A stretch of 64,000 bases of DNA. It comes from a virus. Below the pieces are notes generated by a model, which was not told where the DNA came from, ran no database searches, and saw only the letters and a program-made list of their open reading frames with translations. Each line of letters opens with the position of its first letter. Positions within the stretch are counted from its first letter, which is position 1. This document shows positions 24,802-64,000 of the stretch, in pieces. Location of the stretch: positions 64,001 to 128,000 of the IMG/VR virus record IMGVR_UViG_3300036790_000419. One strand, given 5' to 3'. A program made the position numbers and the translations under genes.

Positions 24802-24803
24802 CA

Positions 24804-24874: not shown

Positions 24875-24878
24875 ATCT

Positions 24879-24951: not shown

Positions 24952-25107
24952 CTTAGGGCACTACTGCCGCGCGTCGGCCGGCGCAAGGCGAGAGAGGGCA
25001 GCTGACCTCTCTGGTGCCTTACCGTTCACCCGTGCGGTAAAACCGGGGACCAGCGGAGCCGAATGTCCGGGGCACCGGGCTGAGGGTGGGGTAAGCCTCC
25101 GCAACAT

Positions 25108-25185
25108 CGGGGTGTGGCGCAGCTTGGCTAGCGCGCTACGTTCGGGACGTAGAGGTCGTGAGTTCAAATCTCACCACTCCGACCA
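25108..25185 (+). tRNA. tRNA-Pro(CGG)
   Basis: Loop ttCGGga, CCA encoded. Confidence 0.92.
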
Positions 25186-25245
25186 GGATCTCAATGGCTC
25201 AAGTGAGGCGGCAGTAAAGGGCCACGCCCTGCCGGAGATCCGTAA

Positions 25246-25317
25246 CGGGATGTAGTTCAGTGGAAGAGCGCCTGGTTTGGGACCAGGATGTCGCGGGTTC
25301 GAGCCCTGCCATCCCGA
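25246..25317 (+). tRNA. tRNA-Pro(TGG)
   Basis: Loop ttTGGga. Confidence 0.92.
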
Positions 25318-25319
25318 CT

Positions 25320-25390
25320 GCTGGTCAGAGCCGCGTGGCGTGCGGGCCCTTAGCGGGGCACTCAGGGTTCGAGTCCCTGCCTGGTCAGCC
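25320..25390 (+). ncRNA. Degenerate tRNA-like element with shrunken anticodon arm
   Basis: Long terminal helix gctggtcag/ctggtcagc, intact T arm caggg-ttcgagt-ccctg. Confidence 0.5.
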
Positions 25391-25466
25391 GCTCCGGTAA
25401 TAGGGACGCCAGCAGCGGACGCGCGCTGGCGGTCGGTGAAACCCCGTTGCGAATCCGGAGCACCCT

Positions 25467-25539
25467 GGGGCCTTAGCTCAGATGGCAGAGCGCCCGGTTG
25501 AAACCCGGAAGGTCGGAGTCTCGGAATCTCCAGGTCCCG
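25467..25539 (+). tRNA. tRNA-Phe(GAA), aberrant T loop
   Basis: Loop ttGAAac, C27:A43, T loop tctcggaat. Confidence 0.7.
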
Positions 25540-25553
25540 CGCAGTAACACAAT

Positions 25554-25626
25554 GGGGATGTGGCCGAACGGTTACAGGCACTTGCCTTCCAAGCAAGCTA
25601 CGCGGGTTCGACCCCCGTCATCCCCT
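25554..25626 (+). tRNA. tRNA-Gly(TCC)
   Basis: Loop ctTCCaa, U73. Confidence 0.9.
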
Positions 25627-25754
25627 CTGGTACGGGCCGGACTCATACTCCGGTTGCGTGCAAGTAACCGGTCCGCGGCTGTCGGGCTGCGGACCGGGAG
25701 CGCCTGGGCTGCCCGGAGGGGCCGACACCCTCTCCGGGGGCACCAGTACTCAAT

Positions 25755-25826
25755 GCGCCGCGAGCATGTACGGCTATGCAGCGGACTCTTAATCCACGGA
25801 ACGGGGTTCAAGTCCCTGGCGGCGCA
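25755..25826 (+). tRNA. tRNA-Lys(CTT)
   Basis: Loop ctCTTaa, C28:A42. Confidence 0.85.
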
Positions 25827-25870
25827 CTTCACCTGGCTTCGCCGATTTTCGGCAGAGTTCGGTGTTATTC

Positions 25871-25945
25871 GGGCGAGTAGAGCAACCTGGCAGACCCTCC
25901 GCTCCCAAAAAGCGGGATGTGCGGGTTCGAATCCCGCCTCGCCCA
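25871..25945 (+). tRNA. tRNA with CAA anticodon (Leu), short variable loop
   Basis: Loop ccCAAaa (C33), no variable arm. Confidence 0.7.
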
Positions 25946-26049
25946 CGCCGGCTGGCAAGGCCGTCCTGCGAATCCTTGCCCGGCCTCTCCTGTGGGGAGA
26001 GCAAAGGCCGTTACAGGAGGGGGAGAAAAGGCCCCTCCCGTCAATTCAG

Positions 26050-26122
26050 TGGGGTATGGCGCAATTGGCAGCGCAGGTGCGTCTGGTGCACAAGGTTCTA
26101 GGTTCGAGTCCTGGTACCCCAG
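26050..26122 (+). tRNA. tRNA-Gln(CTG)
   Basis: U1-A72, loop gtCTGgt. Confidence 0.88.
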
Positions 26123-26125
26123 CGA

Positions 26126-26198
26126 GCTGGAGAATGCGGGTTCGAATCCTGCCCGGCGAGAGAGATCTCGCCGGTGGCTTAATCGGCAAAGCGCCAGC
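26126..26198 (+). ncRNA. Circularly permuted tRNA-like element (YrlA-like)
   Basis: T arm, acceptor helix closed by GAGA tetraloop, D arm, gctgg/ccagc closing stem. Confidence 0.8.
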
Positions 26199-26234
26199 AA
26201 CCCCGGGCACGGACGGTATCCCGGCCCGGGGCCC

Positions 26235-26308
26235 GCCCTTGTAGCTCATCTGGCAAGAGCGCCCGCCCCGTAAGCGGAAGGTCCCGCGTTCGACTCGCGG
26301 CAAGGGCT
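26235..26308 (+). tRNA. tRNA-Thr(CGT)
   Basis: Loop ccCGTaa (C33), C27:A43. Confidence 0.85.
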
Positions 26309-26419
26309 CGTAGTGTCCCGCCGAAGGCGTCACAGGCCCTCATGCCGGCTCCGTTCCAGGTGCCGTGCGGGGTTCGAGTTCTGCTCGTTTCTCCCTCGAT
26401 CGCGCGTCGCGATCATTAT

Positions 26420-26493
26420 GCCCGGATAGCTCAGACGGCGAGAGCGTATCCCCGGTACGGATGAGGCCCCGAGTTCGATTCTCGGTCCGGGCT
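26420..26493 (+). tRNA. tRNA-Thr(GGT)
   Basis: Loop ccGGTac (C33). Confidence 0.85.
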
Positions 26494-26504
26494 CGCAAGT
26501 TCAC

Positions 26505-26578
26505 GCGGATGTAGCTCAGTTGGTTAGAGCGTGACGTTGCCAACGTCAAGGTCGCCGGTTCGAGTCCGGTTATCCGCT
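26505..26578 (+). tRNA. tRNA-Gly(GCC)
   Basis: Loop ttGCCaa. Confidence 0.93.
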
Positions 26579-26579
26579 C

Positions 26580-26662
26580 GGGTGAGTGGCGTAATGGCAG
26601 CCGCGCACGGTTCAGGCCCGTGTGTCCGCAAGGACGTGAGGGTTCAAGTCCCTCCTCGCCTA
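26580..26662 (+). tRNA. tRNA-Leu(CAG)
   Basis: Loop ttCAGgc, variable arm. Confidence 0.92.
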
Positions 26663-26772
26663 CTTCGAGGTTGTCCACCGTGGCCGCGGGCCGCTGCGCC
26701 TGCCGTGCGAGAGCACGGGTTCCAGGACGGCGGTTAGTTTCCCTGCTAGCGGGAGCGAACGGTGACCTACAC

Positions 26773-26856
26773 GGACGCGTGGCTCAGTGGCTACAGCAGC
26801 GCCCTGCTAAGGCGTACAGGGGTAACCCTGCGGAGGTTCGAGTCCTCCCGCGTCCG
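26773..26856 (+). tRNA. tRNA-Ser(GCT)
   Basis: Loop ctGCTaa, variable arm. Confidence 0.92.
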
Positions 26857-26941
26857 CTTCTGCGCCGGATACCAGCCGAGTCCGTCAGGTGGTGACGCAG
26901 GCGCAGTGCCCGTGGGGGACGGCAACCCGCGACGGGCGCCC

Positions 26942-27029
26942 GGAAGCGTAAGTCGAGCCGGCCTACCGACAGCGGTCCCGAAAACCGTGAGGGGTAACTC
27001 CCGTGTGGGTTCGAGTCCCACCGCTTCCT
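26942..27029 (+). tRNA. tRNA-Ser(CGA)
   Basis: Loop ccCGAaa (C33), variable arm. Confidence 0.85.
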
Positions 27030-27196
27030 CCGCACATGATTGAGGCGGCACCCACGGGCCGCTTGCGGGTACCGCCTCAATGTGTAATCAGCCAGGCTGG
27101 TGATCCAGTCCAGAAGGAAGGAACCACGTGCCTTTACGAGCAGCCTAGTTTACTGCTCGCGTTCGCAAGCATACGCACAGTCACAGTGATTGTCGA

Positions 27197-27273
27197 GGGC
27201 GGGTAGCTCAGCAGGTTGGAGCACTTCCCTGATAAGGAAGAGGCCGCTGGTTCGATCCCAGCCTCGCCCACCA
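27197..27273 (+). tRNA. tRNA-Ile(GAT)
   Basis: Loop ctGATaa, CCA encoded. Confidence 0.93.
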
Positions 27274-27274
27274 C

Positions 27275-27349
27275 GGCGGTATAGCTCAGCCGGTGAGAGC
27301 GCCCCGCTCATAACGGGAGAGGCCGGGGGTTCGAGCCCCTCTACCGCTA
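27275..27349 (+). tRNA. tRNA-Met/Ile2(CAT)
   Basis: Loop ctCATaa, C27:A43. Confidence 0.85.
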
Positions 27350-27350
27350 C

Positions 27351-27424
27351 GGGCCGCTAGCTCAACTGCGCAGAGCGGCTGACCTTTAATCAGCGGGTTC
27401 GGGGTTCGAGTCCCCGGCGGCCCA
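27351..27424 (+). tRNA. tRNA-Lys(TTT)
   Basis: Loop ccTTTaa (C33). Confidence 0.88.
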
Positions 27425-27432
27425 CTAGCCTG

Positions 27433-27588
27433 GTGCGCGTGAGGAACCTCGCGCTCCGGGCAGCTGAGCGCCTGCACGTCATCTTCGACGCCGTCCCGGT
27501 TTACGAGGACGAGCGGTGGTACAGGTACGGAGACTGGGGCTGCCGGGCGTCCAACTGGGTGCGCCGGCAGCGGAACAAGCGCCGGTAG
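27433..27588 (+). CDS. 51-aa protein inside the tRNA array
   Basis: Coding-like codons; stop overlaps 5' end of tRNA-Arg(TCT). Confidence 0.4.
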   Translation: MRVRNLALRAAERLHVIFDAVPVYEDERWYRYGDWGCRASNWVRRQRNKRR

Positions 27589-27655
27589 CTCAGTCGGACA
27601 GAGCAGGCGGCTTCTAACCGCCAGGCCGCGGGTTCGAGCCCCGCCTGGCGCACCA
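27579..27655 (+). tRNA. tRNA-Arg(TCT)
   Basis: Loop ctTCTaa, CCA encoded. Confidence 0.93.
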
Positions 27656-27658
27656 CAC

Positions 27659-27731
27659 GGTCCTGTCGTCTAGCGGCCCAGGATGCCTGATTCTCGATCA
27701 GGTCGCGCGAGTTCGAATCTCGCCAGGACCA
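27659..27731 (+). tRNA. tRNA-Glu(CTC)
   Basis: Loop ttCTCga. Confidence 0.9.
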
Positions 27732-27825
27732 CGCAGAGCCTGCTACGCGGGAGACGGCCATTGCCAAAGCAGGTACTCTGAGGTCCGCGCCGGGAGCTGG
27801 CTGAAATCCGCTCGGCAGGACGCAA

Positions 27826-27899
27826 GCCCCTCTCGACTAGCGGTCCAGGTCGCCTGCCTTTCAAGCAGGATGACACCGGTTCGAATCCGGTGGGGGGAA
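27826..27899 (+). tRNA. tRNA-Glu(TTC)
   Basis: Loop ctTTCaa, G1:A72 mismatch. Confidence 0.85.
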
Positions 27900-27930
27900 C
27901 GAGGGCCTCCGGGGTAACCTGGGGGCGCGA

Positions 27931-28008
27931 CGCGGAGTAGGGGAGTTCGGTTGTCCCCGCGGCGCTTTCATAACGCCGAGATCGCGGGTCCGAATCCCGC
28001 CTCCGCCA
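27931..28008 (+). tRNA. Initiator-like tRNA-Met(CAT) with 9-nt anticodon loop
   Basis: C1:C72 mismatch, loop ctttCATaa, T loop TCCGAAT. Confidence 0.7.
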
Positions 28009-28099
28009 CGAGGCCCGGCACTGGCGGCCGGCGAAAGCCCCGGGGAATACGTGGCTGGCCCTGCTGGATAAGGGCTAAACAGCCGGGGGCCTCAGTCGA

Positions 28100-28172
28100 T
28101 CCGGCGTAGCTCAATCGGCAGAGCAGCGTCCCGTTAAGGCGAGGGTTCCCAGTTCGAGTCTGGGCGCCGGAG
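28100..28172 (+). tRNA. tRNA-Asn(GTT)
   Basis: Loop ccGTTaa (C33). Confidence 0.87.
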
Positions 28173-28277
28173 CGCGTCAGTCTGGGATACGAGGGGCAGC
28201 AGCCCTGCCGCGGCCCGCGCGGCGGTCGCCGAAGCGGGACGAGTGCCGGGGCTCCCCAGTCAGCCGCCGGCACACAT

Positions 28278-28353
28278 GGTCTTGTAGGGGAGCCTGGCCG
28301 TCCCCGCCGCCCCGTCAAGGCGAAGATCGCGGGTTCGAATCCCGCCAGGACCG
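28278..28353 (+). tRNA. tRNA-Asp(GTC)
   Basis: Loop ccGTCaa (C33), C27:A43. Confidence 0.87.
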
Positions 28354-28377
28354 CTTTCTCACCCGGGGCCGGGGCGT

Positions 28378-28512
28378 TTAGACACCGGAGCGCTTGCGCC
28401 GCTCGCCCAGCTCGGTCCGCCCGAGCCGGTACAGGGCGCGGTAGCCGCCGAGCCTCAGCCCGATCCAGATGCCGGAGCCGAAGGCGATGACCAGGAGGAT
28501 GAAAATGCCCAC
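28378..28512 (-). CDS. 44-aa single-TM membrane protein (not in ORF track)
   Basis: MGIFILLVIAFGSGIWIGLRLGGYRALY...; own promoter. Confidence 0.65.
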   Translation of the reverse strand: MGIFILLVIAFGSGIWIGLRLGGYRALYRLGRTELGERRKRSGV

Positions 28513-28520
28513 GTGATTAA

Positions 28521-28549
28521 ACGGTACCTGGTTCTTTACCAGTGTCTAG
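28521..28549 (-). promoter_or_regulatory. sigA-type promoter with operator
   Basis: TAGACA-16-TACCGT on minus strand; CTAGAC-actg-GTAAAG 28534-28549. Confidence 0.6.
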
Positions 28550-28554
28550 GCACT

Positions 28555-28629
28555 GCCCCTGTAGCTCAACGGGAGAGCGCCGTCTCGACAAGGCGGAGGG
28601 AGGTGGTCCGACACCACCTAGGGGCACCA
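28555..28629 (+). tRNA. tRNA-Val(GAC)
   Basis: Loop tcGACaa (C33), T loop TCCGACA, CCA encoded. Confidence 0.82.
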
Positions 28630-28630
28630 T

Positions 28631-28704
28631 GCACTAGTAGCTCAGCGGACAAGAGCAGCGGCCTACGGAGCCGCGTGGCGGGGGTTCGAGTCCCTCCTAG
28701 TGCA
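28631..28704 (+). tRNA. tRNA-Arg(ACG)
   Basis: Loop ctACGga. Confidence 0.92.
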
Positions 28705-28715
28705 CGCGAGTACAA

Positions 28716-28787
28716 GGGCGCATAGCTCAGCGGAAGAGCGCTCGGTTCACACCCGAGAGGCCGGCGGTTCGATCCCTTCTGCGCCCA
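28716..28787 (+). tRNA. tRNA-Val(CAC)
   Basis: Loop ttCACac. Confidence 0.88.
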
Positions 28788-28788
28788 C

Positions 28789-28863
28789 GGTCGGTATAGC
28801 TCAACGGCAGAGCGCTGGACTGTGGCTCCAGACATACGAGTTCGATTCTCGTTACCAACCCCA
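28789..28863 (+). tRNA. tRNA-His(GTG)
   Basis: G-1/C73, loop ctGTGgc, C3:A70, CCA encoded. Confidence 0.9.
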
Positions 28864-28864
28864 T

Positions 28865-28948
28865 GGCGGAGTGACCCGAGATGGCAAGGGGGCCGGCTGT
28901 AAACCGGCTGCGCGAGCATGGCAGGTTCGAGCCCTGCGTCCGTCACCA
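28865..28948 (+). tRNA. tRNA-Tyr(GTA)
   Basis: Loop ctGTAaa, variable arm, CCA encoded. Confidence 0.9.
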
Positions 28949-28949
28949 A

Positions 28950-29023
28950 GGTCTCATAGCTCAGTGGAACAGAGCACCCGCCTCCGGAGCGGGGGGCCGG
29001 CGGTTCGAGTCCGTCTGAGACCA
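28950..29023 (+). tRNA. tRNA-Arg(CCG)
   Basis: Loop ctCCGga. Confidence 0.92.
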
Positions 29024-29111
29024 CGACTGAGTTCACCGCCGTGACCTGGCAGCGGGTAGCGGTGGGCCAGTAAAGCGGGGCGTGCTGCCGGCTACGCCTG
29101 CCCCGTCCAAT

Positions 29112-29187
29112 GGCGGTATGGCCGAGTGGTACAGGCGCACGCCTGCAAAACGTGCTTACCCGGGTCCGATTCCCGGTGCCGCCTCCA
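29112..29187 (+). tRNA. tRNA-Cys(GCA)
   Basis: Loop ctGCAaa, C31:A39, T loop TCCGATT, U73, CCA encoded. Confidence 0.87.
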
Positions 29188-29188
29188 G

Positions 29189-29261
29189 GACCCTGTAGCT
29201 CAGCGGACAGAGCTGCTTCCCCCTAAGGAGCGAGTCGCTGGTTCGAGTCCAGCCAGGGCCG
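29189..29261 (+). tRNA. tRNA-Arg(CCT)
   Basis: Loop ccCCTaa (C33), A2:C71. Confidence 0.85.
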
Positions 29262-29394
29262 CCTTCGGTGCTCACGCTGTGGCAGCCTGGAGACGGGAGA
29301 CCGGGTACGGGCTCGGCTTCGCGGGTCTGAGATCGTTTCCGGTCTCCCGTCACACCAGGGTACATGCACATCACTGCGTTACGCTGGCCCTATT

Positions 29395-54979: not shown

Positions 54980-55591
54980 ATGCCGGATGACAGCGAATTG
55001 GATCGTATCGATCCACAGCCGGAGACCTGCAAGCTGTCGACCGGCTTCGAGGTCGACATCGTGCGGATGCGCACCCGCCAGTTCTTCCGCCTGCTGCGCG
55101 TGCTCACCCACGGGGCCGGCCCGGCGCTCACCCAGGCCGGGCTCGACTTCTCGGCCGGGGCGGAAGAGTTCGGCCAGAAGCTGCTGATGCTGGTGGTCAT
55201 GTCCATCCCCGACGCCGAGCAGGAGGCGATCGGCTTCCTCGCCTCCATGTGCCGTCCGGCGGGGGTCGTGGACAAGCCGGCCAGCCAGCTCACCAAGCAG
55301 GAGAACGAGGCCAACCAGGTCCTGTGGGACCGGTACGGCACCGAGCTGCACAACCCGGACCTGGAAGACACCCTTGACCTGATTGAGGTCATCGTCCGCC
55401 AGGAGGCCCCGGAGCTGCAGGCCCTGGGAAAAAAGCTGCAGCGGACACTGGAGGTGTTCCGCAAGACGGGCCAGGACAAGCAGCCGCCGGAGCCGGAGCC
55501 GGGCCCGCAGGAGATCAACTTGCCGGCGCGTTCGCGGCGGCGTTCGACGGCCTCAGCCATGAGTACGGATGGACCGACGAGTACGTCCTAG
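54980..55591 (+). CDS. Tail assembly chaperone (short form)
   Basis: Between tail tube and tape measure genes; slippery G GGA AAA AAG at 55426-55435. Confidence 0.85.
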   Translation: MPDDSELDRIDPQPETCKLSTGFEVDIVRMRTRQFFRLLRVLTHGAGPALTQAGLDFSAGAEEFGQKLLMLVVMSIPDAEQEAIGFLASMCRPAGVVDKPASQLTKQENEANQVLWDRYGTELHNPDLEDTLDLIEVIVRQEAPELQALGKKLQRTLEVFRKTGQDKQPPEPEPGPQEINLPARSRRRSTASAMSTDGPTSTS

Positions 55592-55989
55592 ACCTCCCGG
55601 TCTGCCGGCTGAGGCAGTGCCTGGAGGCCGCGGGGGCGCGACGCCGGCGGGAGCAGCTGGCACGGCTGCGGCTGGCCGAGTGGCAGGTGAAGACAGTGTG
55701 CCAGTTCATCGGCGCGCAGGCCGCGATCGACACGTCCAAGACCGGCGGGCGCAACCCGCTGGTGGAGATGGCCGCCTCCATTGACATCTTCGGCGACAAG
55801 TCGCCCGAGGAGCAGGAGCTGGACCGCATCCGCGGCCCGAAGGTCGCTGACTCGGTCGAAGACGACCCGCGGTTCGGCAAGGTGGCCGCTGACCCGGATG
55901 CCGGGATCGAGGCCAGCAACTCGGCCGGCTCGTACGAGGCGTTCATGACGCTCATGGGCGGCCCGCCGCCTGTCCCGGGAAGGGGGTGA
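54980..55989 (+). CDS. Tail assembly chaperone, -1 frameshift long form
   Basis: -1 frame open from 55426 to 55989 with FDGLSHEYGWTDEYVLDLP. Confidence 0.8.
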
Positions 55990-55998
55990 CGCCCCGCC

Positions 55999-56061
55999 AT
56001 GGCTTACGAAGGTCCGTCTTACTGGTACGTGATCTACAAGGCCGTGGGTTTACCCAGGTGA
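55999..56061 (+). CDS. 20-aa ORF, probable true N-terminus of the tape measure protein
   Basis: SD agggggtg; MAYEGPSYWYVIYKAVGLPR*. Confidence 0.55.
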   Translation: MAYEGPSYWYVIYKAVGLPR

Positions 56062-56074
56062 CTTCAGCGACCTG

Positions 56075-59000
56075 ATGCGGGACGCGGCCGAGGCCAAGGC
56101 CGCGCTGCAGGGCATGTCCGACGCGGTCAAGGCGGAAACCGCCGCTGAGGTGACCGGCTCTACGCAAGCCGCCACCGCGCGCCAGAAAGACATCGTCTCC
56201 ATCCAGCAGGAGACGCAGGCCCTGTCCCAGCTGGCCAACTCCGCCAAGCAGACCAACGTTCAGCTGCTCTACGGCGGCCGGAACGACATGACCCAGCACC
56301 TGAGCGACATGGCCCAGGAGCTGAATTACACCACGCTGCTCAACCGCCAGAAGTGGCTCGGGTTCTCCAGCGTGCAGCAGGCCATGTCGTACCGCCAGCA
56401 GATGTACAACCTGGCACTTCTCGAAAACAAGGCCCACTTTGCCGGGTACCTGACGGCCGACCAGTACCTGGGCTTCCTGCAGCGGGAGACCGCGCAGACC
56501 GCCGCGCTGTCCGCCGCCATCCGCGACCGCACCGCCGCCATCGGGTCCGAGACGGCGATGCTGCTCGCGCACACCAACGCCCTGCAGGGCACCAGTCAGA
56601 CGGCGGGCAGCCTCGGCGAGGGGCTGACCGCGGTCGGTGCCTACAACGCGGCGCTGGTCGGGCTGCCGGACACGGTGACCACCAAGGCCGTGCTGGACGA
56701 CAGCCAGGCGATGGCGCAGCTCGCCGCCTACCGGGCGGCGCTGACCGGGCTCCCGCACGCCGAGCGGATGGACATCGTGTCGGCGGCCACGCGCGCGGGA
56801 GGGGTCCCGCTCACCCCGCAGCGCGCCGCGGCGCCGGTCGCCGCGCACCCGGGCATCGACTACGCGTCGGTCAACCGCATGCTGTCGCAGGCGGCCAGCC
56901 AGGCCCGCCCGGCCGCGAGCGCGCCACTGGCCCTCGGCGCCGCCGGGCAGTCCGGTGACGCCTTGTCGGCTGCCTCCGGCGAGGCCAGCGCGCTCGCGGC
57001 GTCGGTGTCGGCACTGAGCGACAAGGCCGCTGTCTCCGCCGACGCGATCCGCAAGTTCCAGGACTCGCTCATGCTCGCCGCGGTGGACGCCCGCGCGCTG
57101 GAGCAGGGGCTGGGCCGCCTGACCGCCGCCGAGCAACTGCTCAGCGAGGCCAGCGGCAAGTTCGGCAGCGCCCAGGTGGGGCGCAGCAACCGGCGCAGGC
57201 AGCTCAGCCCGCAGGAGAGCCAGCAGGGTATCGCGGACGTCGCCGGGCTGCAGGACATCACCGGGGCGCTGCGCGGCGGGGAGATGTCCAATGCGCCGCG
57301 CGGCTACCCGCTGCCCGCGCCCGGCATGCGGATTGTCCCGCCCGCGCAGGGGGGCGGGGAGCAGGACCTGTGGGGCGCGCTCAGCAAGTACATGCAGCCG
57401 GCCAAGGCGGCAGCGCAGGTCAGCGTCGAGGGCGGCGAGCAGTCCGAGGCCGTGCTGGACAAGATCGCCGTCCAGATGCAGTGGCTGGACAAGGAGGACG
57501 CCCGGCCGCGCCTGGACCTGGAGGGCGGCCAGCAGGCCGTTACCGAGGCGGACCTGCTGGCCCGCGAGCTGGCCGAGCTGGACACGCGGTCGCGGCTGAA
57601 CGTCGGCATCGGCTTCGAGGAGGTCGAGCAGGCCCGCCTGGAGACGGAGGCACTGGGCGAGGACCTGGCCGGCCTGCCCCGGGAAGTGGACACCGTGCTG
57701 GTGGTCGAGTCCAGCGGCGCGACGCGCGAAGTCCGCGACTACACCCGCGACATCCAGGACATCGAGCGCGAAGTGGGCACCCGCGCCGACTTCGAGGACG
57801 CTGACGCCGAGAACGGCCTGTCGCGGTACCTGACGGCGCTCATCGAGGCGGTGCAGCACAAGTACGAGTTCTACGCCAGCTTCGATGACACCGCCGCCAA
57901 GGAGGAGCTGAGCGGCTGGATCCGGGAACTGGAGGAGGCCCGGGCGCAGGAGAACCGCATCACCGCCGGCATGGGCGGTGCCTCCGGCGGCGGGGGCGGG
58001 GGCGGGCCGCCAGCGGGAGCAGCCGGCGCGGGCGACGCGCCAGACCCGGGTGACGCCCGGGCGTGGGAGGAAATCGCCAAGGCGATGCGCGACGCGGACC
58101 AGTCCGCGATCGACGCCAACCGCGCCCTGTACGACGTCAAGGCCGGGCTCGGCGGGATGGCCGACCCCGCCGCCAAGGCTGCCTCCGCGCTGAAGGCCGA
58201 GGGCGACGCCGCCGTCTACATGGGCTGGCGCATCGGGCTGCTGCGCACGCAGGTCCAGCTCTGGTCGGGCGTCTTCGGGGACACCAAGCTCATCGGCGAG
58301 GTGGCCCTGTGGCACATCCTGCTGGACAGCGTCGTGGAGGTGCTGGCCCTGTGGGTGCCCGCCCTGGCGACCGCCGCGGCCGGGCTCATCGCGTTCGGCG
58401 CGGCCGGCTACCAGTCTTTTAAAGAGATAACCCAGCAGTGGATGACCCTGAGCACGGTCGGCACCGCGCTCAACACGACGATCCCGCCGCTGACTGACAG
58501 CTTCGCCAAGCTGCAGGCCGCGGTCCGGCCGCAGGTTTACGAGCTGCTCGGCGACTACCTGACCGCAGCGGGCGACAAGACCGGCGTCCTCGGCCAGCTC
58601 ATCAACGAGACTGGCAGCTACCTCGACAAGTTCGCCGCCAAGGTCGTCGTCGCCATGCAGTCCGGCGGGACCGGGCTGCAGGACTTCCTGTCGGCCGGCG
58701 CGAAGGACCTCGCGCTCATCGGCCAGGGGTTCGCATCCCTGGGCGTCATCGTCGTCAAGTTCATCCAGGCCACGGCCATCACGCACATCGCCGAGGACCT
58801 GGCCGCGGTCGGCGACCTCATCCTCAGGGTCGCCGCCGACGTCGTGTCGATCGTGCCGACGCCGGTCCTGGCCCTCGTGCTGGCCCTGCACGGCGTCATC
58901 CTGTGGGGCGGCCTGGCGGCCGATGCCGTGGGCAAGGTGGTCATCGGCGTGGCCGGGCTGGCCGGCAAGCTGCCCGCCCTCAGCGCCGGGGCGGAGGCCG

Positions 59001-62000
59001 TAGCCCGCGCGCTGGGCGCGACCAACACCCAGCTGGTCAGTATCGCCAGGAGCAGCACCGAGGTCAGTGCCGTCTCCGACATGATGGGGGCGAAGGCCAG
59101 CGAGGAGGAGCTGGCCCAGCTCGCGATCTCCATCAAGGCCACCGGGCAGAGCGTCGAGGAGTTCGTGGCCTCGGCCGGCACCACCTCAGCGGCGCGGCTT
59201 GAGAGGTTCAGCACCGGGCTGGACGACGCGGGCAAGAAGTCCGTCGCCCTGGGCATCGCCGCCGGCGCGAGCGACACCCAGCTGGCCGGGATGGCCACCC
59301 GGCTGGGCGGCACCGCTGAGGAAGCGGGCGCGCTGGCCATCGAGGGCGGCGCGGCGGCCGAGGCGGTCGGCGCGGGCGGGGGCGGGCTGCTGGCCGCGCT
59401 CGGCAACCTTGTCCCGGTGCTGGGCAACGCCTACGTCGACCTCGGCCTGCTCGCTGCCGCCCTGGTCGGCCTCGGGGTGTACCTGGGGACCCGGGCCGAC
59501 CAGACTAAGCAGTTCACCGACGCCATGGGGCAGGCCGTCGAGAAGGCGTCGCTGCTCACGGTGATTTCCACCACGGTCGGCAACCTGGCCGAGGTCACCA
59601 CCACCCTCAACAAGGCCCAGGCCACCGGCGTCGGCAACGCCAGCGAGCTGGCCGCCTCCCAGTCCGACCTGTCCGGCAAGCTCCAGGAGGAGCTGACCCA
59701 CGTCGGCGACGTGTCCAAGGCCTACGGGACGAACTTCGTCGGCTCACTGGCACTGATGAACGCCGCCGGCGTCACCACCAACCAGCTGTTCACCACCCAG
59801 GCAGGCGTCTGGGCCGTGGCGATGCAGCAGGTCAAGGGCCTCATCTCCGGCTACCAGGCCATGGGCCAGCAGATGGGGGCGGTCGGCGAGGACCTCAACG
59901 CGCTGAACCTGCAGAACTCGGCGCAGGCCGCGTCGATGGACAAGCTCAACCAGGCCTACGACGCGTGGACCAAGACCGTCGGCCAGGGCCCGAGCGCGTT
60001 CATCTCCATGGCCCAGGGCTTCGCCACCTTCCAGAAGGACGCGGCAGCGGCCGGGGCCTCGATGTCCGGCCTGAGCGCCACCAGCCTCACCCTGCAGAGC
60101 GACTTCCAGGCCAGCTACGGCGATGTCGAGTCCCTGTTCGACGCGTTCCGCAACGACCAGGCGCTCACCGGCACCGGTGACTTCACGTCCTTCGTCAAGG
60201 ACGCCGTCGCCCAGCTGATTCCCATGGCGGGCGGGTCCAAGGAGGCCGCGGCCCAGATCTCGGCGCTGGCCCAGGAGGCCGGCGGCCCGGCCACGACCAG
60301 CATCAAGACCCTGCAGCAGTGGGTCGGCAACATCACTGACCCGCTGCAGAAGATGTACGACGCGACCAACAGCGAGTCGGACGCCGCCTCCAACCTGAGC
60401 CAGGACGCCGCCCGGCTGACTAACACGCTGCAGCAGCAGCTCAACCCCGCCATGGCGAGCGCCATCTTCAACGCGCACGGCGGCCAGGGGGTCTTCAACG
60501 CGTTCGCTGACGCGCTGGCTAAGTCCGGCCCGTCCAGCGCGGCCACCGTGACAGCGGCACACAACGTGGCCGCCGAGCTGCTGGCGGTGTCCGGCACCAG
60601 TGCGAGCGCCAAAGCCAGTTTCGTCGGCTTCGGCGAAGCGATGGGGCTGAGCACCAAGAAGGCCAACGCGCTGTGGGCTCAGGTCACCGCGCTCCCGAAG
60701 AACGTCACGACCACCTACGAGCTGGACGCCACCGAGGCGCTCAAGAAGGCGGCCAAGCTCCAGGCCGAGCTACCGGGACTTACCGGGAAGAAAAAGCTTG
60801 AGGTCGAGGCACAGATCAAGGACCTGAAGCTGCAGGCCCTGCAGGACAAGCTCAAGGCGGCCAAGGGCGACGTCTCCGACCTCGACAACGCGAGCCTGAG
60901 CAAGCTGCGCGGCGAGCTGGCGAAGACGGCCAGCTCCACAGCGAACCTGGTCAAGCCGGGCGAGACCGACACGATTCTCAAGTCGTTCAAGGACGGCACG
61001 TTCTACGAGGCGACGTTCCTCGCCTTCATCCCCCAGGTGCAGCGCGGCCTGGAGGTCATGAACCACGCGATCGGCCAGTTCTTCGTTCACGACATCCCGG
61101 AGGCACTCGGCGTCACCGGCCACGCCTTCGAGGCGGCGTGGGACGGGATGGTCAACTGGTTCACCCAGTCGGTGCCGCACGCGCTGGAAGCCGCCTGGGA
61201 CACGGTCTCCGGCTTCTTTGACCGGGCGTTCACGCACGACATCCCCGAGGCCTGGGACCGGGCCTGGAACGACCTGGTCTCCCCGGTGACCCACGCGTTC
61301 GACTCGGTGAAAACCTGGGTCTCCTCCAATTTCGACAACTGGTGGAAGACTCACGGCAGCGCCGTCGAGGCAGTCTGGAACGCGGTCTGGGGGCAGGTCC
61401 GCGGTGACGCCCTCGCCGCGTGGCACTTCATCGAGTCCGACGCGACTACCGCCTGGCACGTCGTCACCGCCCTGTTCACCAGCGGGCCCGCCAAGCAGCT
61501 CTGGAGCGGGTTCGCCAGTGCCGGCAAGGACGTCTGGAACGGGTTCACCGGGGCTGCCCGGGCCGCCTGGGGCCTGGCGGTCGCCGGCGCCAAGGGCGCG
61601 CTGAGCAACATCGAGGCCGTCTTCAAGGCCGGCTGGGCCGTCGTCGCCGCGCTCGGCAAGTCCGCCTGGGACCTGCTTTCGAATTTCATCGTTGCCGACG
61701 TGAAATCCGCCGCAGCCGTGGTCGAGGCCGTCTTCAAGGTGGCCTGGGCCGTGGTGGAGGCCGCGGGCAAGATCATCTGGGACACCCTGGTCCTGGTAAT
61801 CAACGAGTTCCTGGACATCGTCACCGGCCACTGGCAGACCGCGTGGAAAGACCTGCAGGCCTACGCCGTTCAGGTGTGGAACGCGATCAGGACCGCCGGC
61901 ATCCAGGTGTGGAACGCGCTTTCGAGTGCGGCCACCCAGGTCTGGAACAACATCTGGAACGCGGTCAAGACCTCGGCCACCCAGGTCTGGAACGCGCTGC

Positions 62001-64000
62001 GCACCGGCGGCCAGCAGGCGTGGTCCGCGATCTGGCACTCGCTGGACGCCACGGTCATCCAGCCGATGCAGCGGTTTTTCACCGGCACCGTCCCCGGCTG
62101 GTGGAACTCGCTGGCAGGCAAGTGGAAGTCCATGTGGTCGAGCGCGTGGACCACCTTCAACAGCGACATCCTGAGCCCGATCGAGAAGTTCTTCACCTCA
62201 ACGCTGCCGACCGCGATGGAGAACTCCCTCAAGGGCGGCATCAACCACGTCATCGACGACATCAACAAGGTCATCGGCTTCATCAACGCCGTGACCTCGG
62301 TGGTGGGCGTCCACATCGGCACCATCTCCCACCTGGCGTCGGGCGGCGCGGTGCGGATGGCCGCGGGCTCGGTGCCGGGCACCGGCGACGAGGACGGCAC
62401 GCACATCATCGCCATGGGCGGCGAGTACATGCTGCGCAAGCCCGCCCGGATGGCGCTGCAGCAGGAGTACGGGCCAGGCTTCCTGGACCGCCTGAACCAG
62501 GCGGACAGCTGGCTGGGCGCCGGCTCGCGCGGCAACGCGGCGTCGCAGCGCCGCCCCGGCGGCGGCCGGTACGCCAGTGGCGGCGGGATCCTCGGTGACA
62601 TCGGCAACTGGGTCGGCGACGCGGCCAGCGCCGTGGCGGGGGCGGCCACCGACGTCTGGCACGGGATCAGCGACGCGGCCGGCGAGGTGGCCAAGTTCGG
62701 CGAGAAGGCCGTCTTCAACGCGATGTGGACCGTCTCCGGCGCCCCGGCGGAAAAGGCCATGGAGGCACTCGGCACCCCTGGCGACATGGGCGCGTCCTGG
62801 CTGCAGCAGGTCCACAACGGCGTCGAAACCTGGATGACCGCCCAGACCTCGAAGGCCGCGGCCCAGGCCGGCGGCCCGGCCGGCGGCGCGACCGGCAGCG
62901 ACATGGCCAACGGCCGGGAGCTGTACAACTACCTGCTGAGGAACCTGTTCGGCGGGAACAAGATAGCGGCGGCCGGGGCAGCTGCTAGCATCTGGGGCGA
63001 AAGTTCCTGGAACCCGTTCGCGCAGGGTACCGGGGGCCGCGGCCTGATCGGCTGGACCCCGCCGAGCACCATCAGCGACGCCGACTTCAAGGGCGGCATG
63101 GCCACCCAGCTGCCGGCCATCCTGCGGTTCGTGACCTCCAGCGGGGACGCCGGCGTCATCGCGGAGATGTTCCAGGCTGGCAGCGTGCTGCAGGCGGCCA
63201 ACGAGTGGGGGGTGGGCGTCGAGCGGTTCGGCATCAACGACGTGCACCCGGAGGGCGTCGCGCTGGCGTCCTCGTTCATGGCGGGCGGCGGGCCGGTGGC
63301 GGACGCGATCCGGTCGGTGACCTCCAACCTCAGCAACCAGGAGGCGATGGCAGTCAGCTCCTGGCTGCTGACCAGGATGAACCCGGCCGGGTCTGACACC
63401 GCGCACGGGGCGTACGGCGCGTGGCTGCTGCCGCTGGCCAGGAACAAGGGCCTCACCCAGGCGCAGGCGCAGAACCCGCTGACCGAGGCACGCCTGGTGG
63501 CCCCTGTCTACGCCAAGGCGGTTCTCGGGTCCACCCCGGCCGCCTGGAAGGCGACCCCCGCGCAGGCGGCGGAGAAGGCCTACGCGGCGGCGAGCCAGTC
63601 CCTGGGCGTCCGCTGGGCCACCCCGGCCGCCGGCACCCTGGCGGCGGCCTGGAACGCCGTCTCCCAGGCACTCGGCCCGGCCGTGCCGCAGACCACCGCG
63701 GGCACCAGCTCCGCAAGCACCGCGGCCTACCAGGCCGCCGCCGCGCAGTTGTACCCCGACTGGGAGGGCGCGCTCGGCCCGTGGCACAGCCTGTACGCGC
63801 TAAAGCAGCCCAAGGGCACCCCGGCCGCGGACTGGGCGACGTGGCTGGCGCAGCGCGCCGTCGTGCAGAACCGGGTGGGCACCGCCAGCAGCTACATCGC
63901 GCCGCTGTTCACCGACCTGAAGGCCAACCCGCAGGAGCTGACGGCGGCCACGTGGTCGAACGCCGACTCCTCGGTCCGGCGCTGGCAGGCGGCGATGGAC
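56075..64000 (+). CDS. Tape measure protein (>2600 aa, truncated by window) with tail-lysozyme-like domain
   Basis: Ala-rich frame consistent at spot checks to window end; W-periodic repeats ~61100-62200; ASIWGESSWNP...GRGLIGWT near 62990-63060. Confidence 0.9.
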   Translation, partial: MRDAAEAKAALQGMSDAVKAETAAEVTGSTQAATARQKDIVSIQQETQALSQLANSAKQTNVQLLYGGRNDMTQHLSDMAQELNYTTLLNRQKWLGFSSVQQAMSYRQQMYNLALLENKAHFAGYLTADQYLGFLQRETAQTAALSAAIRDRTAAIGSETAMLLAHTNALQGTSQTAGSLGEGLTAVGAYNAALVGLPDTVTTKAVLDDSQAMAQLAAYRAALTGLPHAERMDIVSAATRAGGVPLTPQRAAAPVAAHPGIDYASVNRMLSQAASQARPAASAPLALGAAGQSGDALSAASGEASALAASVSALSDKAAVSADAIRKFQDSLMLAAVDARALEQGLGRLTAAEQLLSEASGKFGSAQVGRSNRRRQLSPQESQQGIADVAGLQDITGALRGGEMSNAPRGYPLPAPGMRIVPPAQGGGEQDLWGALSKYMQPAKAAAQVSVEGGEQSEAVLDKIAVQMQWLDKEDARPRLDLEGGQQAVTEADLLARELAELDTRSRLNVGIGFEEVEQARLETEALGEDLAGLPREVDTVLVVESSGATREVRDYTRDIQDIEREVGTRADFEDADAENGLSRYLTALIEAVQHKYEFYASFDDTAAKEELSGWIRELEEARAQENRITAGMGGASGGGGGGGPPAGAAGAGDAPDPGDARAWEEIAKAMRDADQSAIDANRALYDVKAGLGGMADPAAKAASALKAEGDAAVYMGWRIGLLRTQVQLWSGVFGDTKLIGEVALWHILLDSVVEVLALWVPALATAAAGLIAFGAAGYQSFKEITQQWMTLSTVGTALNTTIPPLTDSFAKLQAAVRPQVYELLGDYLTAAGDKTGVLGQLINETGSYLDKFAAKVVVAMQSGGTGLQDFLSAGAKDLALIGQGFASLGVIVVKFIQATAITHIAEDLAAVGDLILRVAADVVSIVPTPVLALVLALHGVILWGGLAADAVGKVVIGVAGLAGKLPALSAGAEAVARALGATNTQLVSIARSSTEVSAVSDMMGAKASEEELAQLAISIKATGQSVEEFVASAGTTSAARLERFSTGLDDAGKKSVALGIAAGASDTQLAGMATRLGGTAEEAGALAIEGGAAAEAVGAGGGGLLAALGNLVPVLGNAYVDLGLLAAALVGLGVYLGTRADQTKQFTDAMGQAVEKASLLTVISTTVGNLAEVTTTLNKAQATGVGNASELAASQSDLSGKLQEELTHVGDVSKAYGTNFVGSLALMNAAGVTTNQLFTTQAGVWAVAMQQVKGLISGYQAMGQQMGAVGEDLNALNLQNSAQAASMDKLNQAYDAWTKTVGQGPSAFISMAQGFATFQKDAAAAGASMSGLSATSLTLQSDFQASYGDVESLFDAFRNDQALTGTGDFTSFVKDAVAQLIPMAGGSKEAAAQISALAQEAGGPATTSIKTLQQWVGNITDPLQKMYDATNSESDAASNLSQDAARLTNTLQQQLNPAMASAIFNAHGGQGVFNAFADALAKSGPSSAATVTAAHNVAAELLAVSGTSASAKASFVGFGEAMGLSTKKANALWAQVTALPKNVTTTYELDATEALKKAAKLQAELPGLTGKKKLEVEAQIKDLKLQALQDKLKAAKGDVSDLDNASLSKLRGELAKTASSTANLVKPGETDTILKSFKDGTFYEATFLAFIPQVQRGLEVMNHAIGQFFVHDIPEALGVTGHAFEAAWDGMVNWFTQSVPHALEAAWDTVSGFFDRAFTHDIPEAWDRAWNDLVSPVTHAFDSVKTWVSSNFDNWWKTHGSAVEAVWNAVWGQVRGDALAAWHFIESDATTAWHVVTALFTSGPAKQLWSGFASAGKDVWNGFTGAARAAWGLAVAGAKGALSNIEAVFKAGWAVVAALGKSAWDLLSNFIVADVKSAAAVVEAVFKVAWAVVEAAGKIIWDTLVLVINEFLDIVTGHWQTAWKDLQAYAVQVWNAIRTAGIQVWNALSSAATQVWNNIWNAVKTSATQVWNALRTGGQQAWSAIWHSLDATVIQPMQRFFTGTVPGWWNSLAGKWKSMWSSAWTTFNSDILSPIEKFFTSTLPTAMENSLKGGINHVIDDINKVIGFINAVTSVVGVHIGTISHLASGGAVRMAAGSVPGTGDEDGTHIIAMGGEYMLRKPARMALQQEYGPGFLDRLNQADSWLGAGSRGNAASQRRPGGGRYASGGGILGDIGNWVGDAASAVAGAATDVWHGISDAAGEVAKFGEKAVFNAMWTVSGAPAEKAMEALGTPGDMGASWLQQVHNGVETWMTAQTSKAAAQAGGPAGGATGSDMANGRELYNYLLRNLFGGNKIAAAGAAASIWGESSWNPFAQGTGGRGLIGWTPPSTISDADFKGGMATQLPAILRFVTSSGDAGVIAEMFQAGSVLQAANEWGVGVERFGINDVHPEGVALASSFMAGGGPVADAIRSVTSNLSNQEAMAVSSWLLTRMNPAGSDTAHGAYGAWLLPLARNKGLTQAQAQNPLTEARLVAPVYAKAVLGSTPAAWKATPAQAAEKAYAAASQSLGVRWATPAAGTLAAAWNAVSQALGPAVPQTTAGTSSASTAAYQAAAAQLYPDWEGALGPWHSLYALKQPKGTPAADWATWLAQRAVVQNRVGTASSYIAPLFTDLKANPQELTAATWSNADSSVRRWQAAMD

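What the first reader, a model, noticed from the sequence alone, without database searches (positions are those of the whole stretch)
55999..56077. Tape measure N-terminus is out of frame: possible +1 frameshift or hop at TTA CCC AGG TGA
Seen: the SD-led ORF MAYEGPSYWYVIYKAVG ends GGT TTA CCC AGG TGA, while the tape measure frame (GDFSDLMRDAA...) is +1 and its first ATG (56075) has no SD. Removing 10 nt between the two GGT codons gives a seamless KAVGDFSDL. Established: TTA is the rarest codon in GC-rich actinomycetes (bldA control), and CCC or CUU before a hungry AGG or stop promotes +1 shifting. The array encodes Pro-TGG and Arg-CCT but no Leu-TAA tRNA. Inference: tRNA-supply-dependent recoding gates tail assembly; alternatives are a mobile-element footprint, an inactivating mutation or an assembly error.
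Basis: partly seen in the sequence, partly recalled or inferred. Interest (0 to 1): 0.75.

Follow-up and report, generated by a model that had tools for sequence, protein, structure and literature searches.

The report
Ribosome hop starts tape-measure gene
The tail tape-measure gene of this 149-kb soil phage is broken after codon 17 by ten extra bases that begin with the very rare leucine codon TTA, and comparison with 20 related alleles indicates that ribosomes skip those bases, a rare way of reading a gene so far proposed only for a Streptomyces phage terminase.

Summary
ATG 55999 opens a 17-codon fragment (MAYEGPSYWYVIYKAVG). It is followed by TTA CCC AGG TGA, and the 2846-codon tape-measure frame continues in +1 from GAC 56060.

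Nine unbroken related alleles read (M/V)AYEGPEYWYVIYKA(I/V)(G/A)DFGDLMRDAA in one frame. The window therefore carries a 10-nt insert, GGT[TTACCCAGGT]GAC.

Eleven other distinct alleles carry inserts of 4-16 nt at six sites within the first 20 codons. All begin with an in-frame TTA, none has a length divisible by three, and most end in a copy of the preceding codon. The 5' fragments remain under purifying selection.

The anatomy matches the phiHau3 terminase sites, e.g. GGC[TTACTCCGGT]AAG (PMC10732093). TTA is 0.46 per 1000 codons here. Neither this phage nor five relatives encode tRNA-Leu(UAA).

Best reading (about 0.7): UUA-triggered translational bypassing, GGU to GGU. For this allele alone, a +1 shift adding three residues or a restart at ATG 56075 is not excluded.

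In relatives the inserts sit beside homing-type nuclease genes (EndoVII or HNH). The window has none, so it may keep a bypass after nuclease loss.

This scan had already reported sister cases on other genomes. Class: new member of a known, rare kind.

The parts
55980..55989 (+). Shine-Dalgarno-like AAGGGGGTGA, overlapping the stop codon (55987-55989) of the upstream tail-assembly-chaperone T frame
   Evidence: Sequence read. The upstream frame is identified.
55999..56049 (+). Tape-measure 5' coding fragment, codons 1-17 (MAYEGPSYWYVIYKAVG). The last codon, GGT 56047-56049, is the proposed take-off codon.
   Evidence: It is homologous to the N-terminus of unbroken relatives and is under purifying selection.
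56050..56059 (+). 10-nt non-coding insert TTACCCAGGT. It consists of the rare codon TTA (56050-52) in the A site, the gap bases CCCA, and the landing codon GGT (56057-59).
   Evidence: It is absent from 9 unbroken alleles. It is present with the same length, TTA start and GGT end in L005. The anatomy matches phiHau3 g6/7 TTACTCCGGT.
56059..56061 (+). Zero-frame stop TGA. It ends the 20-aa product made when TTA is decoded normally.
56060..64000 (+). Main tape-measure reading frame, resuming at GAC 56060 (DFSDLMRDAA...). It continues to window-equivalent position 64600. The predicted joined protein is 2863 aa.
   Evidence: One search gives the ORF extent and shows no TTA codon in it. One search gives matches to PHROG tape-measure families (phrog_1272, 1.4e-18; phrog_4200; phrog_167).
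56075..56077 (+). First ATG of the main frame (Met in DLMRDAA). This is the start site in the rival 'independent start or reinitiation' reading.
   Evidence: The Met is also conserved in unbroken alleles but is absent in the insert-bearing L023.
54980..55989 (+). Tail assembly chaperone pair G (54980-55591) and the -1 frame T extension (open 55387-55989), with the slippery A_AAA_AAG at 55429-55435. This is context showing that the next gene is the tape measure.
   Evidence: (phrog_34893 tail assembly chaperone, 7e-16).
24358..29263 (+). Array of 33 tRNA genes without a UUA decoder. It contains Gly(GCC), which reads the take-off and landing codon GGU.
   Evidence: The arrays of five relatives also lack Leu(UAA).

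Best explanation
The tape-measure gene starts at ATG 55999 and is interrupted after codon 17 by a 10-nt non-coding block.

Proposed mechanism. A ribosome carries peptidyl-tRNA-Gly on GGU (56047-49) and meets the very rare codon UUA (56050-52) in its A site. UUA has no phage tRNA and is presumably decoded slowly by the host, so the ribosome stalls. The peptidyl-tRNA lets go of the mRNA, the mRNA slides 10 nt, and the tRNA re-pairs with the next GGU (56057-59). Decoding resumes at GAC 56060. The product is a 2863-aa protein with the seamless junction KAVG-DFSDL. Ribosomes that do decode UUA stop three codons later at UGA and release a 20-aa peptide.

Shown: the insert, its absence from relatives, the TTA start and matched-codon rule across the family, and purifying selection on the 5' fragment.

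Inferred: the hop itself, its efficiency, and its purpose.

Likely origin. The tape-measure 5' end appears to be a target of homing-type nucleases that sit just upstream in relatives. Bypassable inserts would alter that DNA without changing the protein, as in T4 gene 60. The window would then keep the insert without the nuclease. Dependence on UUA decoding may additionally set or gate the amount of tape-measure protein.
For: 1. Nine unbroken alleles read the N-terminus in one frame. Deleting the TTA-led inserts restores the same 27-residue sequence in all 21 alleles.

2. There are 15 inserts in 11 distinct broken alleles, at six sites within 20 codons. All start with an in-frame TTA, and their lengths are 4, 7, 10, 13, 14 and 16, never a multiple of 3. 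In 12 of the 15, the last three bases are identical or synonymous to the codon before the insert (GGT/GGT, GGA/GGT, GGT/GGC, TGG/TGG, TAT/TAC). Where the junction residue is Ala, both codons are GCT (L023).

3. The 14-nt insert needs a +2 change of frame. 11 of 15 inserts have TAA or TAG in the +1 frame at bases 2-4. One-base frameshifting therefore cannot explain the family, while a hop can.

4. The window and L005 share site, length, TTA and GGT, but only 1 of the 4 inner bases. This fits a gap that is not translated.

5. The 5' fragments of broken alleles show 370 synonymous against 106 non-synonymous pairwise codon differences. Unbroken alleles show 141 against 69.

6. TTA is 0.46 per 1000 codons in 50 long ORFs and is absent from the 2841-codon tape-measure frame. 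There is no tRNA-Leu(UAA) among 33 phage tRNAs, nor in five relatives.

7. The anatomy matches phiHau3 terminase, GGC[TTACTCCGGT]AAG and TCT[TTAACGGTCC]ACG. For that gene, full-length product in Streptomyces and a junction peptide by mass spectrometry in E. coli (with UAA in place of UUA) are reported (PMC10732093).

8. In a genome-wide scan this is the only TTA at which the coding frame switches without an ordinary gene start.

9. Nuclease link. EndoVII (PF02945) or HNH genes abut the tape-measure start in L002/3, L004, L010, L011, L019 and L023, and a 48-aa remnant is present in L008. No unbroken allele has one. Retention of a bypass after nuclease loss is described for the gene 60 element (bioRxiv 10.1101/2022.08.31.505936).
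Against: No protein, RNA or read data exist for this phage, so the hop is inferred from comparison only.

In this allele the +1 frame through the insert is open (T TAC CCA GGT). A +1 shift giving KAVG-YPG-DFSDL cannot be excluded from sequence.

No significant local RNA structure was found in the window (fold z = +0.6), and no clear stimulator is conserved with L005.

Three of the 15 inserts lack a matching landing codon: AAG[TTAG]GCC, and GTT[TTAGGCC]ATT in two alleles. The re-pairing rule is therefore not universal.

The host is unknown, so slow decoding of UUA is assumed from codon usage.

The window has no adjacent nuclease, so the homing-immunity origin is by analogy with relatives.
Confidence: 0.7

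Rival explanations
1. Programmed +1 frameshifting inside the insert. Either the A site is read out of frame at GGU_U (UAC), or tRNA-Pro slips on CCC_A before the rare AGG. The result is a tape-measure protein with three extra residues (KAVG-YPG-DFSDL or KAVG-LPG-DFSDL).
For: The insert length is 3n+1. In this allele the +1 frame through the insert has no stop. CCC followed by the rare AGG and then a stop is a plausible shifty context (established knowledge of +1 shifting at hungry codons; PMC5009743).
Against: The context is not conserved. L005, with the same site and length, has GCT CGG and a +1-frame TAG. 11 of 15 family inserts have a +1-frame stop at bases 2-4, and the 14-nt insert needs +2. 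The junction residues are conserved in unbroken alleles. In phiHau3 a +1-frame stop placed in the gap raised rather than lowered recoding (PMC10732093).
Confidence: 0.12
2. No recoding. The 20-codon ORF is a leader, and the tape-measure protein starts at ATG 56075, either through the SD-like AGGTGA 13 nt upstream or by termination-reinitiation after TGA 56059-61. The protein would lack 22 ancestral residues.
For: ATG 56075 exists and is conserved. AGGTGA (56056-61) can pair with the 16S 3' end. The stop-to-ATG distance is 13 nt.
Against: The 5' fragments of broken alleles stay under purifying selection at the protein level. This includes the middle fragment of double-insert alleles, which has no start codon of its own. 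L023 has no Met codon at that position; its next start codon is 30 codons downstream. In L010 the zero frame runs 297 codons past the ATG, so reinitiation is not available there. The same Met is conserved in unbroken alleles, so its conservation does not point to a start.
Confidence: 0.1
3. The gene is dead or mis-assembled: a recent inactivating indel, or an assembly or sequencing error in a metagenomic contig.
For: The record is a metagenome-derived virus contig, and no reads are available.
Against: The same site and length of insert occur in an independent contig whose flanks have diverged by roughly 15% by my count (L005). Eleven other distinct alleles from several samples carry TTA-led inserts. 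The downstream 2841-codon frame is intact and contains no TTA. The 5' fragment is conserved.
Confidence: 0.03
4. The 10 nt are removed from the mRNA (splicing or editing) rather than skipped by the ribosome.
For: Removal would give the same seamless product.
Against: A 4-16 nt block cannot hold a self-splicing intron. No bulge-helix-bulge or other conserved structure was seen in the window. The invariant in-frame TTA and the matched flanking codons are features of decoding, not of RNA cutting.
Confidence: 0.02

Closest known systems
UUA-mediated candidate translational bypassing in the large terminase gene of Streptomyces phage phiHau3, and in two Streptomyces prophages (Smith et al. 2013 as cited in, and Antonov et al. 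2023, PMC10732093)
   Same: A short frame-breaking insert that is absent from homologues. UUA is the first in-frame codon of the insert. The insert is 10 nt. The take-off and landing codons are synonymous (Hau3 GGC...GGT and TCT...TCC; window GGT...GGT). A zero-frame stop follows within 3 codons. The genome is GC-rich and UUA is very rare. The Hau3 sequences were read directly. TTACTCCGGT and TTACCCAGGT agree at 7 of 10 positions by my comparison.
   Different: The gene is the tape measure, not the terminase, and the site is in the first 20 codons. The phage is a 149-kb, tRNA-rich, apparently lytic phage of unknown host, unrelated to Hau3. In the window's family the inserts occur at six sites, range from 4 to 16 nt, and are associated with homing-type nucleases. 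The parts of the Hau3 paper I read describe no such association. There is no experimental evidence here.
Phage T4 gene 60 bypass cassette with its mobile nuclease (MobA element; bioRxiv 10.1101/2022.08.31.505936; PMC5009743)
   Same: Matched take-off and landing Gly codons. A slow codon (a stop, or in some homologues a rare codon) lies in the A site at take-off. The insert lets DNA near a homing-nuclease site differ without changing the protein. Some genomes keep the bypass after losing the nuclease, as the window appears to do.
   Different: The gap is 50 nt, with a take-off stem-loop, a nascent-peptide signal and an internal SD. The window has 10 nt and no significant structure. There is no sequence homology. 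The nuclease is absent from the window and belongs to other families (EndoVII, HNH) in relatives.
Hungry-codon +1 frameshifting and short hops in bacteria (prfB-type shifts and hops at starved codons, reviewed in PMC5009743)
   Same: A slow A-site codon provokes loss of frame by the P-site tRNA.
   Different: Those events move to an overlapping codon or are low-level errors. Here the family pattern requires skipping 4-16 nt to a matched codon, and in most alleles a stop blocks the overlapping +1 codon.

Membership tests
phiHau3-type UUA-led bypass insert | Short frame-breaking block whose flanks are adjacent in homologues that lack it | tested here: met
   Nine unbroken alleles. Removing 56050-56059 restores KAVG|DFSDL.
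phiHau3-type UUA-led bypass insert | UUA is the first codon of the block, in the upstream reading frame | tested here: met
   TTA 56050-52 is in frame with ATG 55999. The same holds for all 15 family inserts and both Hau3 sites.
phiHau3-type UUA-led bypass insert | The landing codon at the 3' end of the block is identical or synonymous to the take-off codon | tested here: met
   GGT 56047-49 and GGT 56057-59. 12 of 15 family inserts match, with a GCT/GCT pair in L023.
phiHau3-type UUA-led bypass insert | Standard decoding of UUA runs into a stop soon afterwards | tested here: met
   TGA lies 3 codons after TTA. This is not true of all relatives (L010: 297 codons).
phiHau3-type UUA-led bypass insert | UUA is exceptionally rare and its decoder is limiting in the host (bldA-type tRNA) | tested here: inconclusive
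   TTA is 0.46 per 1000 codons. There is no phage tRNA-Leu(UAA) in this phage or five relatives. The host and its tRNA supply are unknown. A TraB-like gene (NF041214, 3e-48) hints at a mycelial actinomycete host.
phiHau3-type UUA-led bypass insert | Stimulatory stem-loop and internal Shine-Dalgarno near the site | tested here: inconclusive
   Window fold z = +0.6. There is only a 4-bp UGGG/CCCA mini-hairpin and AGGUGA at the landing site. Neither is conserved in L005.
phiHau3-type UUA-led bypass insert | A joined protein is made, with a junction peptide lacking insert-encoded residues | not testable with these tools
   This needs mass spectrometry or a reporter.
T4 gene 60 / MobA bypass cassette | About 50-nt gap with take-off stem-loop, nascent-peptide signal and gap SD, homologous to the gene 60 cassette | tested here: not met
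   The gap is 10 nt, has no significant structure and has no sequence resemblance.
T4 gene 60 / MobA bypass cassette | Homing nuclease gene adjacent to the bypass | tested here: not met
   Only 9 nt separate the chaperone stop from ATG 55999. tblastn with the relatives' nucleases finds just an unlinked EndoVII-like gene at 38154-38423. The feature is met in relatives.
Programmed +1 frameshift site (prfB-like) | Conserved slippery P-site codon followed by a slow codon, with the overlapping +1 codon readable | tested here: not met
   CCC_A is unique to the window. L005 and 10 other inserts have a +1-frame stop, and one insert class needs +2.

The most novel reading that the evidence does not exclude
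The first 20 codons of the tape-measure gene in this phage lineage are an arena in which homing nucleases and bypassable TTA-led mini-inserts co-evolve. The inserts would act as protein-neutral immunity alleles against nuclease cleavage. Because they depend on slow UUA decoding, they would also make tail production sensitive to the host's tRNA-Leu(UAA) state. The window would then be a nuclease-free immune allele kept by selection, not a relic.
Probability: 0.3. Interest if true: 0.85.

Novelty: new member of a known kind. Interest (0 to 1): 0.68.

Why it matters
Natural translational bypassing is known from very few systems: T4 gene 60 and its homologues, one yeast mitochondrion, and the candidate phiHau3 terminase sites.

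The UUA-triggered short-gap type rests on three terminase genes and partial experiments. This window adds a clean second gene family with the same anatomy. Together with its relatives, it forms a natural series of variants. These include gap lengths of 4-16 nt, different take-off codons with co-varying landing codons, presence or absence of a +1-frame stop, and single or double sites. Such a series can guide experiments on what a short hop requires.

It also matters for annotation. Gene callers will truncate or split such tape-measure genes.

If the link to homing nucleases and to UUA decoding holds, it would connect selfish-DNA conflict, recoding and host physiology in one 10-nt element.

Tried and rejected
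1. Cultured-phage records. DNA (megablast) and protein (tblastn) searches of the tape-measure 5' region found nothing. The nearest cultured phage by portal protein is Microbacterium phage Magritte (50% identity). Its tape measure starts MVDQRTRVIYQALADFSAL with no insert and is too distant to help.

2. Prophage relatives. A scan of 185,579 prokaryote genomes found none, so no host could be assigned this way.

3. Other sites in this genome. A crude scan of TTA in high-GC3 frames gave about 100 uninformative hits. It was replaced by a codon-usage log-odds scan. That scan found only the tape-measure site plus ordinary gene junctions.

4. Pfam gave no family for the tape measure or the chaperones. 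PHROGs did.

5. RNA folding of the window site and of L005 showed no significant or shared structure, so I claim no stimulatory structure for the window.

6. The upstream ORFs of L017, L019 and L024 gave no match in the family libraries tried. tblastn showed that L019 encodes an EndoVII relative and L024 has only a weak HNH-like match on the other strand. L017 and L018 remain unassigned.

7. The idea that the ARAGORN 'tRNA-SeC(tca)' might read through the zero-frame UGA was dropped. The loop reads TTCATAA, and relatives have Met(CAT) at that array position. Read-through would not reach the tape-measure frame anyway.
Full report
**What is in the sequence**

The window is bases 64001-128000 of a 148,913-bp IMG/VR virus record (70% G+C, CheckV completeness 98%).

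- ATG 55999 lies 9 nt after the stop of the preceding gene and behind AAGGGGGTGA. It opens MAYEGPSYWYVIYKAVG.
- This fragment is followed by TTA CCC AGG TGA (56050-56061).
- The +1 frame is open from 56033 and reads ...GDFSDLMRDAA. Its first ATG is at 56075, and it runs 2841 codons to window-equivalent position 64600. It contains no TTA codon.
- The long frame matches PHROG tape-measure families (phrog_1272, 1.4e-18; phrog_4200; phrog_167).
- The gene before it is a tail assembly chaperone (phrog_34893, 7e-16). Its -1 frame extension ends at 55989, and a classical A_AAA_AAG slippery site lies at 55429-55435.

**Relatives show a 10-nt insert**

Scans of IMG/VR and JGI metagenome contigs returned 25 loci, representing 20 distinct related alleles.

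- Nine alleles (L006, L007, L009, L012, L013, L016, L021, L022, L025) read the N-terminus in a single frame: (M/V)AYEGPEYWYVIYKA(I/V)(G/A)DFGDLMRDAA.
- Against these, the window has ten extra bases: GGT[TTACCCAGGT]GAC.
- L005 has GGA[TTAGCTCGGT]GAC at the same place. L005 comes from another contig, and its flanks have diverged from the window's by roughly 15% by my count of invariant columns.
- The two inserts share the TTA, the length and the final GGT, but only one of the four inner bases.

This rules out an assembly error or a fresh lesion. It also shows that the inner bases are free to drift, as expected if they are not translated.

**The family pattern**

Eleven distinct broken alleles besides the window carry inserts at six positions within the first 20 codons:

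| Site | Insert | Alleles |
|---|---|---|
| after Y8 | TAT[TTAC]TGG | L017, L018 |
| after W9 | TGG[TTAGATCGCTTTGG]TAC (14 nt) | L002-L004 |
| after W9 | TGG[TTAGATCGCCTGG]TAC (13 nt) | L008 |
| after W9 | TGG[TTAGCCAATCGCCTGG]TAT (16 nt) | L023 |
| after V11 | GTT[TTAGGCC]ATT | L019, L024 |
| after K14 | AAG[TTAG]GCC | L011 |
| after G/A17 | 10 nt | window, L005 |
| after G/A17 | GGT[TTAACATTCAGGT]GAC (13 nt) | L002-L004 |
| after G/A17 | GGT[TTAACATCCAGGC]GAC (13 nt) | L008 |
| after G/A17 | GCT[TTAACACGCT]GAC (10 nt) | L023 |
| after G20 | GGT[TTAACCTGGC]GAC | L010 |

- Every insert begins with TTA in the frame of the preceding fragment.
- No insert length is a multiple of three.
- In 12 of the 15 inserts tabulated, the last three bases are identical or synonymous to the codon just before the insert.
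- Where the junction residue is Ala instead of Gly, both copies are GCT.
- Deleting the inserts as defined restores the conserved N-terminus in all 21 alleles.

**The 5' fragments are still translated as protein**

Among broken alleles, codons upstream of site 17 show 370 synonymous against 106 non-synonymous pairwise codon differences. Unbroken alleles show 141 against 69. The non-synonymous counts include ATG/GTG start-codon differences. In double-insert alleles this includes the middle fragment YVIYKAIG, which has no start codon and lies in a third frame. It can only be reached by a change of frame during decoding.

**Hop or frameshift**

A single one-base shift cannot explain the family, for three reasons.

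- The 14-nt insert needs +2.
- In 11 of 15 inserts, bases 2-4 are TAA or TAG. This puts a stop in the overlapping +1 codon.

A hop explains all inserts of 10 nt or more, and also TAT[TTAC]TGG. In a hop, the P-site tRNA leaves its codon and re-pairs with a matched codon at the end of the insert.

Three inserts do not fit a simple re-pairing rule and remain unexplained: AAG[TTAG]GCC, and GTT[TTAGGCC]ATT in two alleles.

For the window alone the +1 frame through the insert is open (TAC CCA GGT). A +1 shift adding Tyr-Pro-Gly therefore cannot be excluded from sequence. I give it about 0.12.

**Restart at ATG 56075**

AGGTGA lies 13 nt upstream of the ATG, and the zero-frame TGA lies 13 nt before it. 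An independent start or reinitiation is therefore physically possible here. Three observations argue against it as the family's solution.

- L023 has no Met codon at that position, and its next start codon is 30 codons further on.
- In L010 the zero frame runs 297 codons past the ATG.
- The 5' fragments stay conserved.

I give it about 0.1 for this allele.

**Rarity of UUA**

- TTA makes up 9 of 19,721 codons (0.46 per 1000) in 50 long ORFs.
- The phage's 33 tRNAs include Leu(CAA) and Leu(CAG) but no Leu(UAA). They also include Gly(GCC), which reads GGU.
- The arrays of five relatives (33-37 tRNAs each), broken or unbroken, also lack Leu(UAA).
- A genome-wide scan found no second TTA at which the coding frame switches without an ordinary start.
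- The host is unknown. No prophage relative was found, and the closest cultured phage by portal protein infects Microbacterium (50% identity).
- A TraB-like gene at genome 145107-147173 matches NF041214 at 3e-48, below the family's equivalog cut-off.

**Comparison with what is known**

Antonov et al. 2023 (PMC10732093) describe two 10-nt UUA-led inserts in the phiHau3 terminase gene and one each in two prophages. They report a full-length product in Streptomyces. They also report a junction peptide by mass spectrometry in E. coli, obtained after replacing UUA with UAA.

I read the Hau3 sites directly: GGC[TTACTCCGGT]AAG and TCT[TTAACGGTCC]ACG. They have the same length, the same TTA start, synonymous take-off and landing codons, and a zero-frame stop three codons on. 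The window's element meets every sequence-level criterion of this kind.

Host tRNA limitation and the joined protein cannot be tested here. No stimulatory structure was found. In the searchable literature, 'translational bypassing' and 'tape measure' co-occur only in a review, where the tape measure appears in the G/GT context.

**Link to homing nucleases**

In relatives, a roughly 250-aa gene ends on the tape-measure start.

- It is Endonuclease VII family (PF02945, E 1e-12 to 1e-13) in L002/3, L011 and L023. Homologues are present in L004 and L019.
- It is an HNH nuclease in L010.
- L008 keeps only a 48-aa EndoVII remnant, along with both of its inserts.
- No unbroken allele has such a gene. 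The window and L005 have none either.

On a tree of the first 200 residues after the insert, the window sits in a supported clade with L004, L005, L002, L008 and the unbroken L006. Nearly identical tape measures carry different inserts (L011 and L019; L010 and L017). This points to fast turnover at the 5' end.

This parallels T4 gene 60. There the bypass insert protects against the neighbouring mobile nuclease, and some genomes keep the bypass after losing the nuclease (10.1101/2022.08.31.505936).

For the window, this origin is inference by analogy.

**Verdict**

The feature is real. It is most likely a UUA-triggered 10-nt ribosome hop that produces a 2863-aa tape-measure protein. It is a new member of a rare, only partly validated kind.

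Sister cases in the same gene of other genomes were already reported by this scan. I reached the hop reading independently before consulting them, and I tested the nuclease link myself.

Noticed in passing
L002:5947-5992 (also L004, L008, L023): In double-insert alleles, the first insert is the reverse complement of the coding sequence just before the second TTA. The pairs are GATCGCTTTG/CAAAGCGATC in L002, GATCGCCT/AGGCGATC in L008 and CAATCGCCT/AGGCGATTG in L023. The result is a 8-10 bp hairpin that co-varies with synonymous changes. The L002 fold has z = -4.4. It may act like the 5' stem-loop of T4 gene 60.
   Followed up: partly
L011:3430-3460, L019:690-720, L024: The same 10-mer TTAGGCCATT occurs at two different sites: after K14 in L011 and after V11 in L019 and L024. 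Neither has a landing codon that matches the take-off codon. These inserts do not fit simple re-pairing and may be skipped by another route, or may add an Ala.
   Followed up: no
window 55429-55435: A canonical -1 slippery heptamer A_AAA_AAG lies in the tail assembly chaperone gene, where the T frame (open 55387-55989) overlaps G (54980-55591). Two recoding events are therefore predicted within 650 nt of each other.
   Followed up: partly
window 27931-28009: ARAGORN calls a 79-nt 'tRNA-SeC(tca)'. The loop reads TTCATAA, and relatives have Met(CAT) at this array position. It is probably a tRNA-Met read one base out of register, not a UGA reader.
   Followed up: partly
window 38046-38861 (- strand) and 44142-44924 (+ strand): Two free-standing homing-type nuclease genes lie elsewhere in the structural module. 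One is an EndoVII-like gene, about 31-34% identical over its domain to the nucleases that abut the tape-measure start in relatives. The other is an HNH endonuclease (phrog_374, 2e-58). No TTA-led frame break was found next to either.
   Followed up: partly
genome 145107-147173 (L034:5108-7174), beyond the window: A 689-aa protein matches plasmid transfer protein TraB (NF041214, 3.2e-48, below the equivalog cut-off). The neighbouring ORF has DUF2637. This was noted earlier by this scan. Here it is used only as a hint about the host.
   Followed up: partly
window 47838-49058: A glycosyltransferase gene (phrog_2170, 1e-18) lies inside the head-tail structural block. Microbacterium phage Magritte has one too, just before its major tail protein gene.
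   Followed up: no
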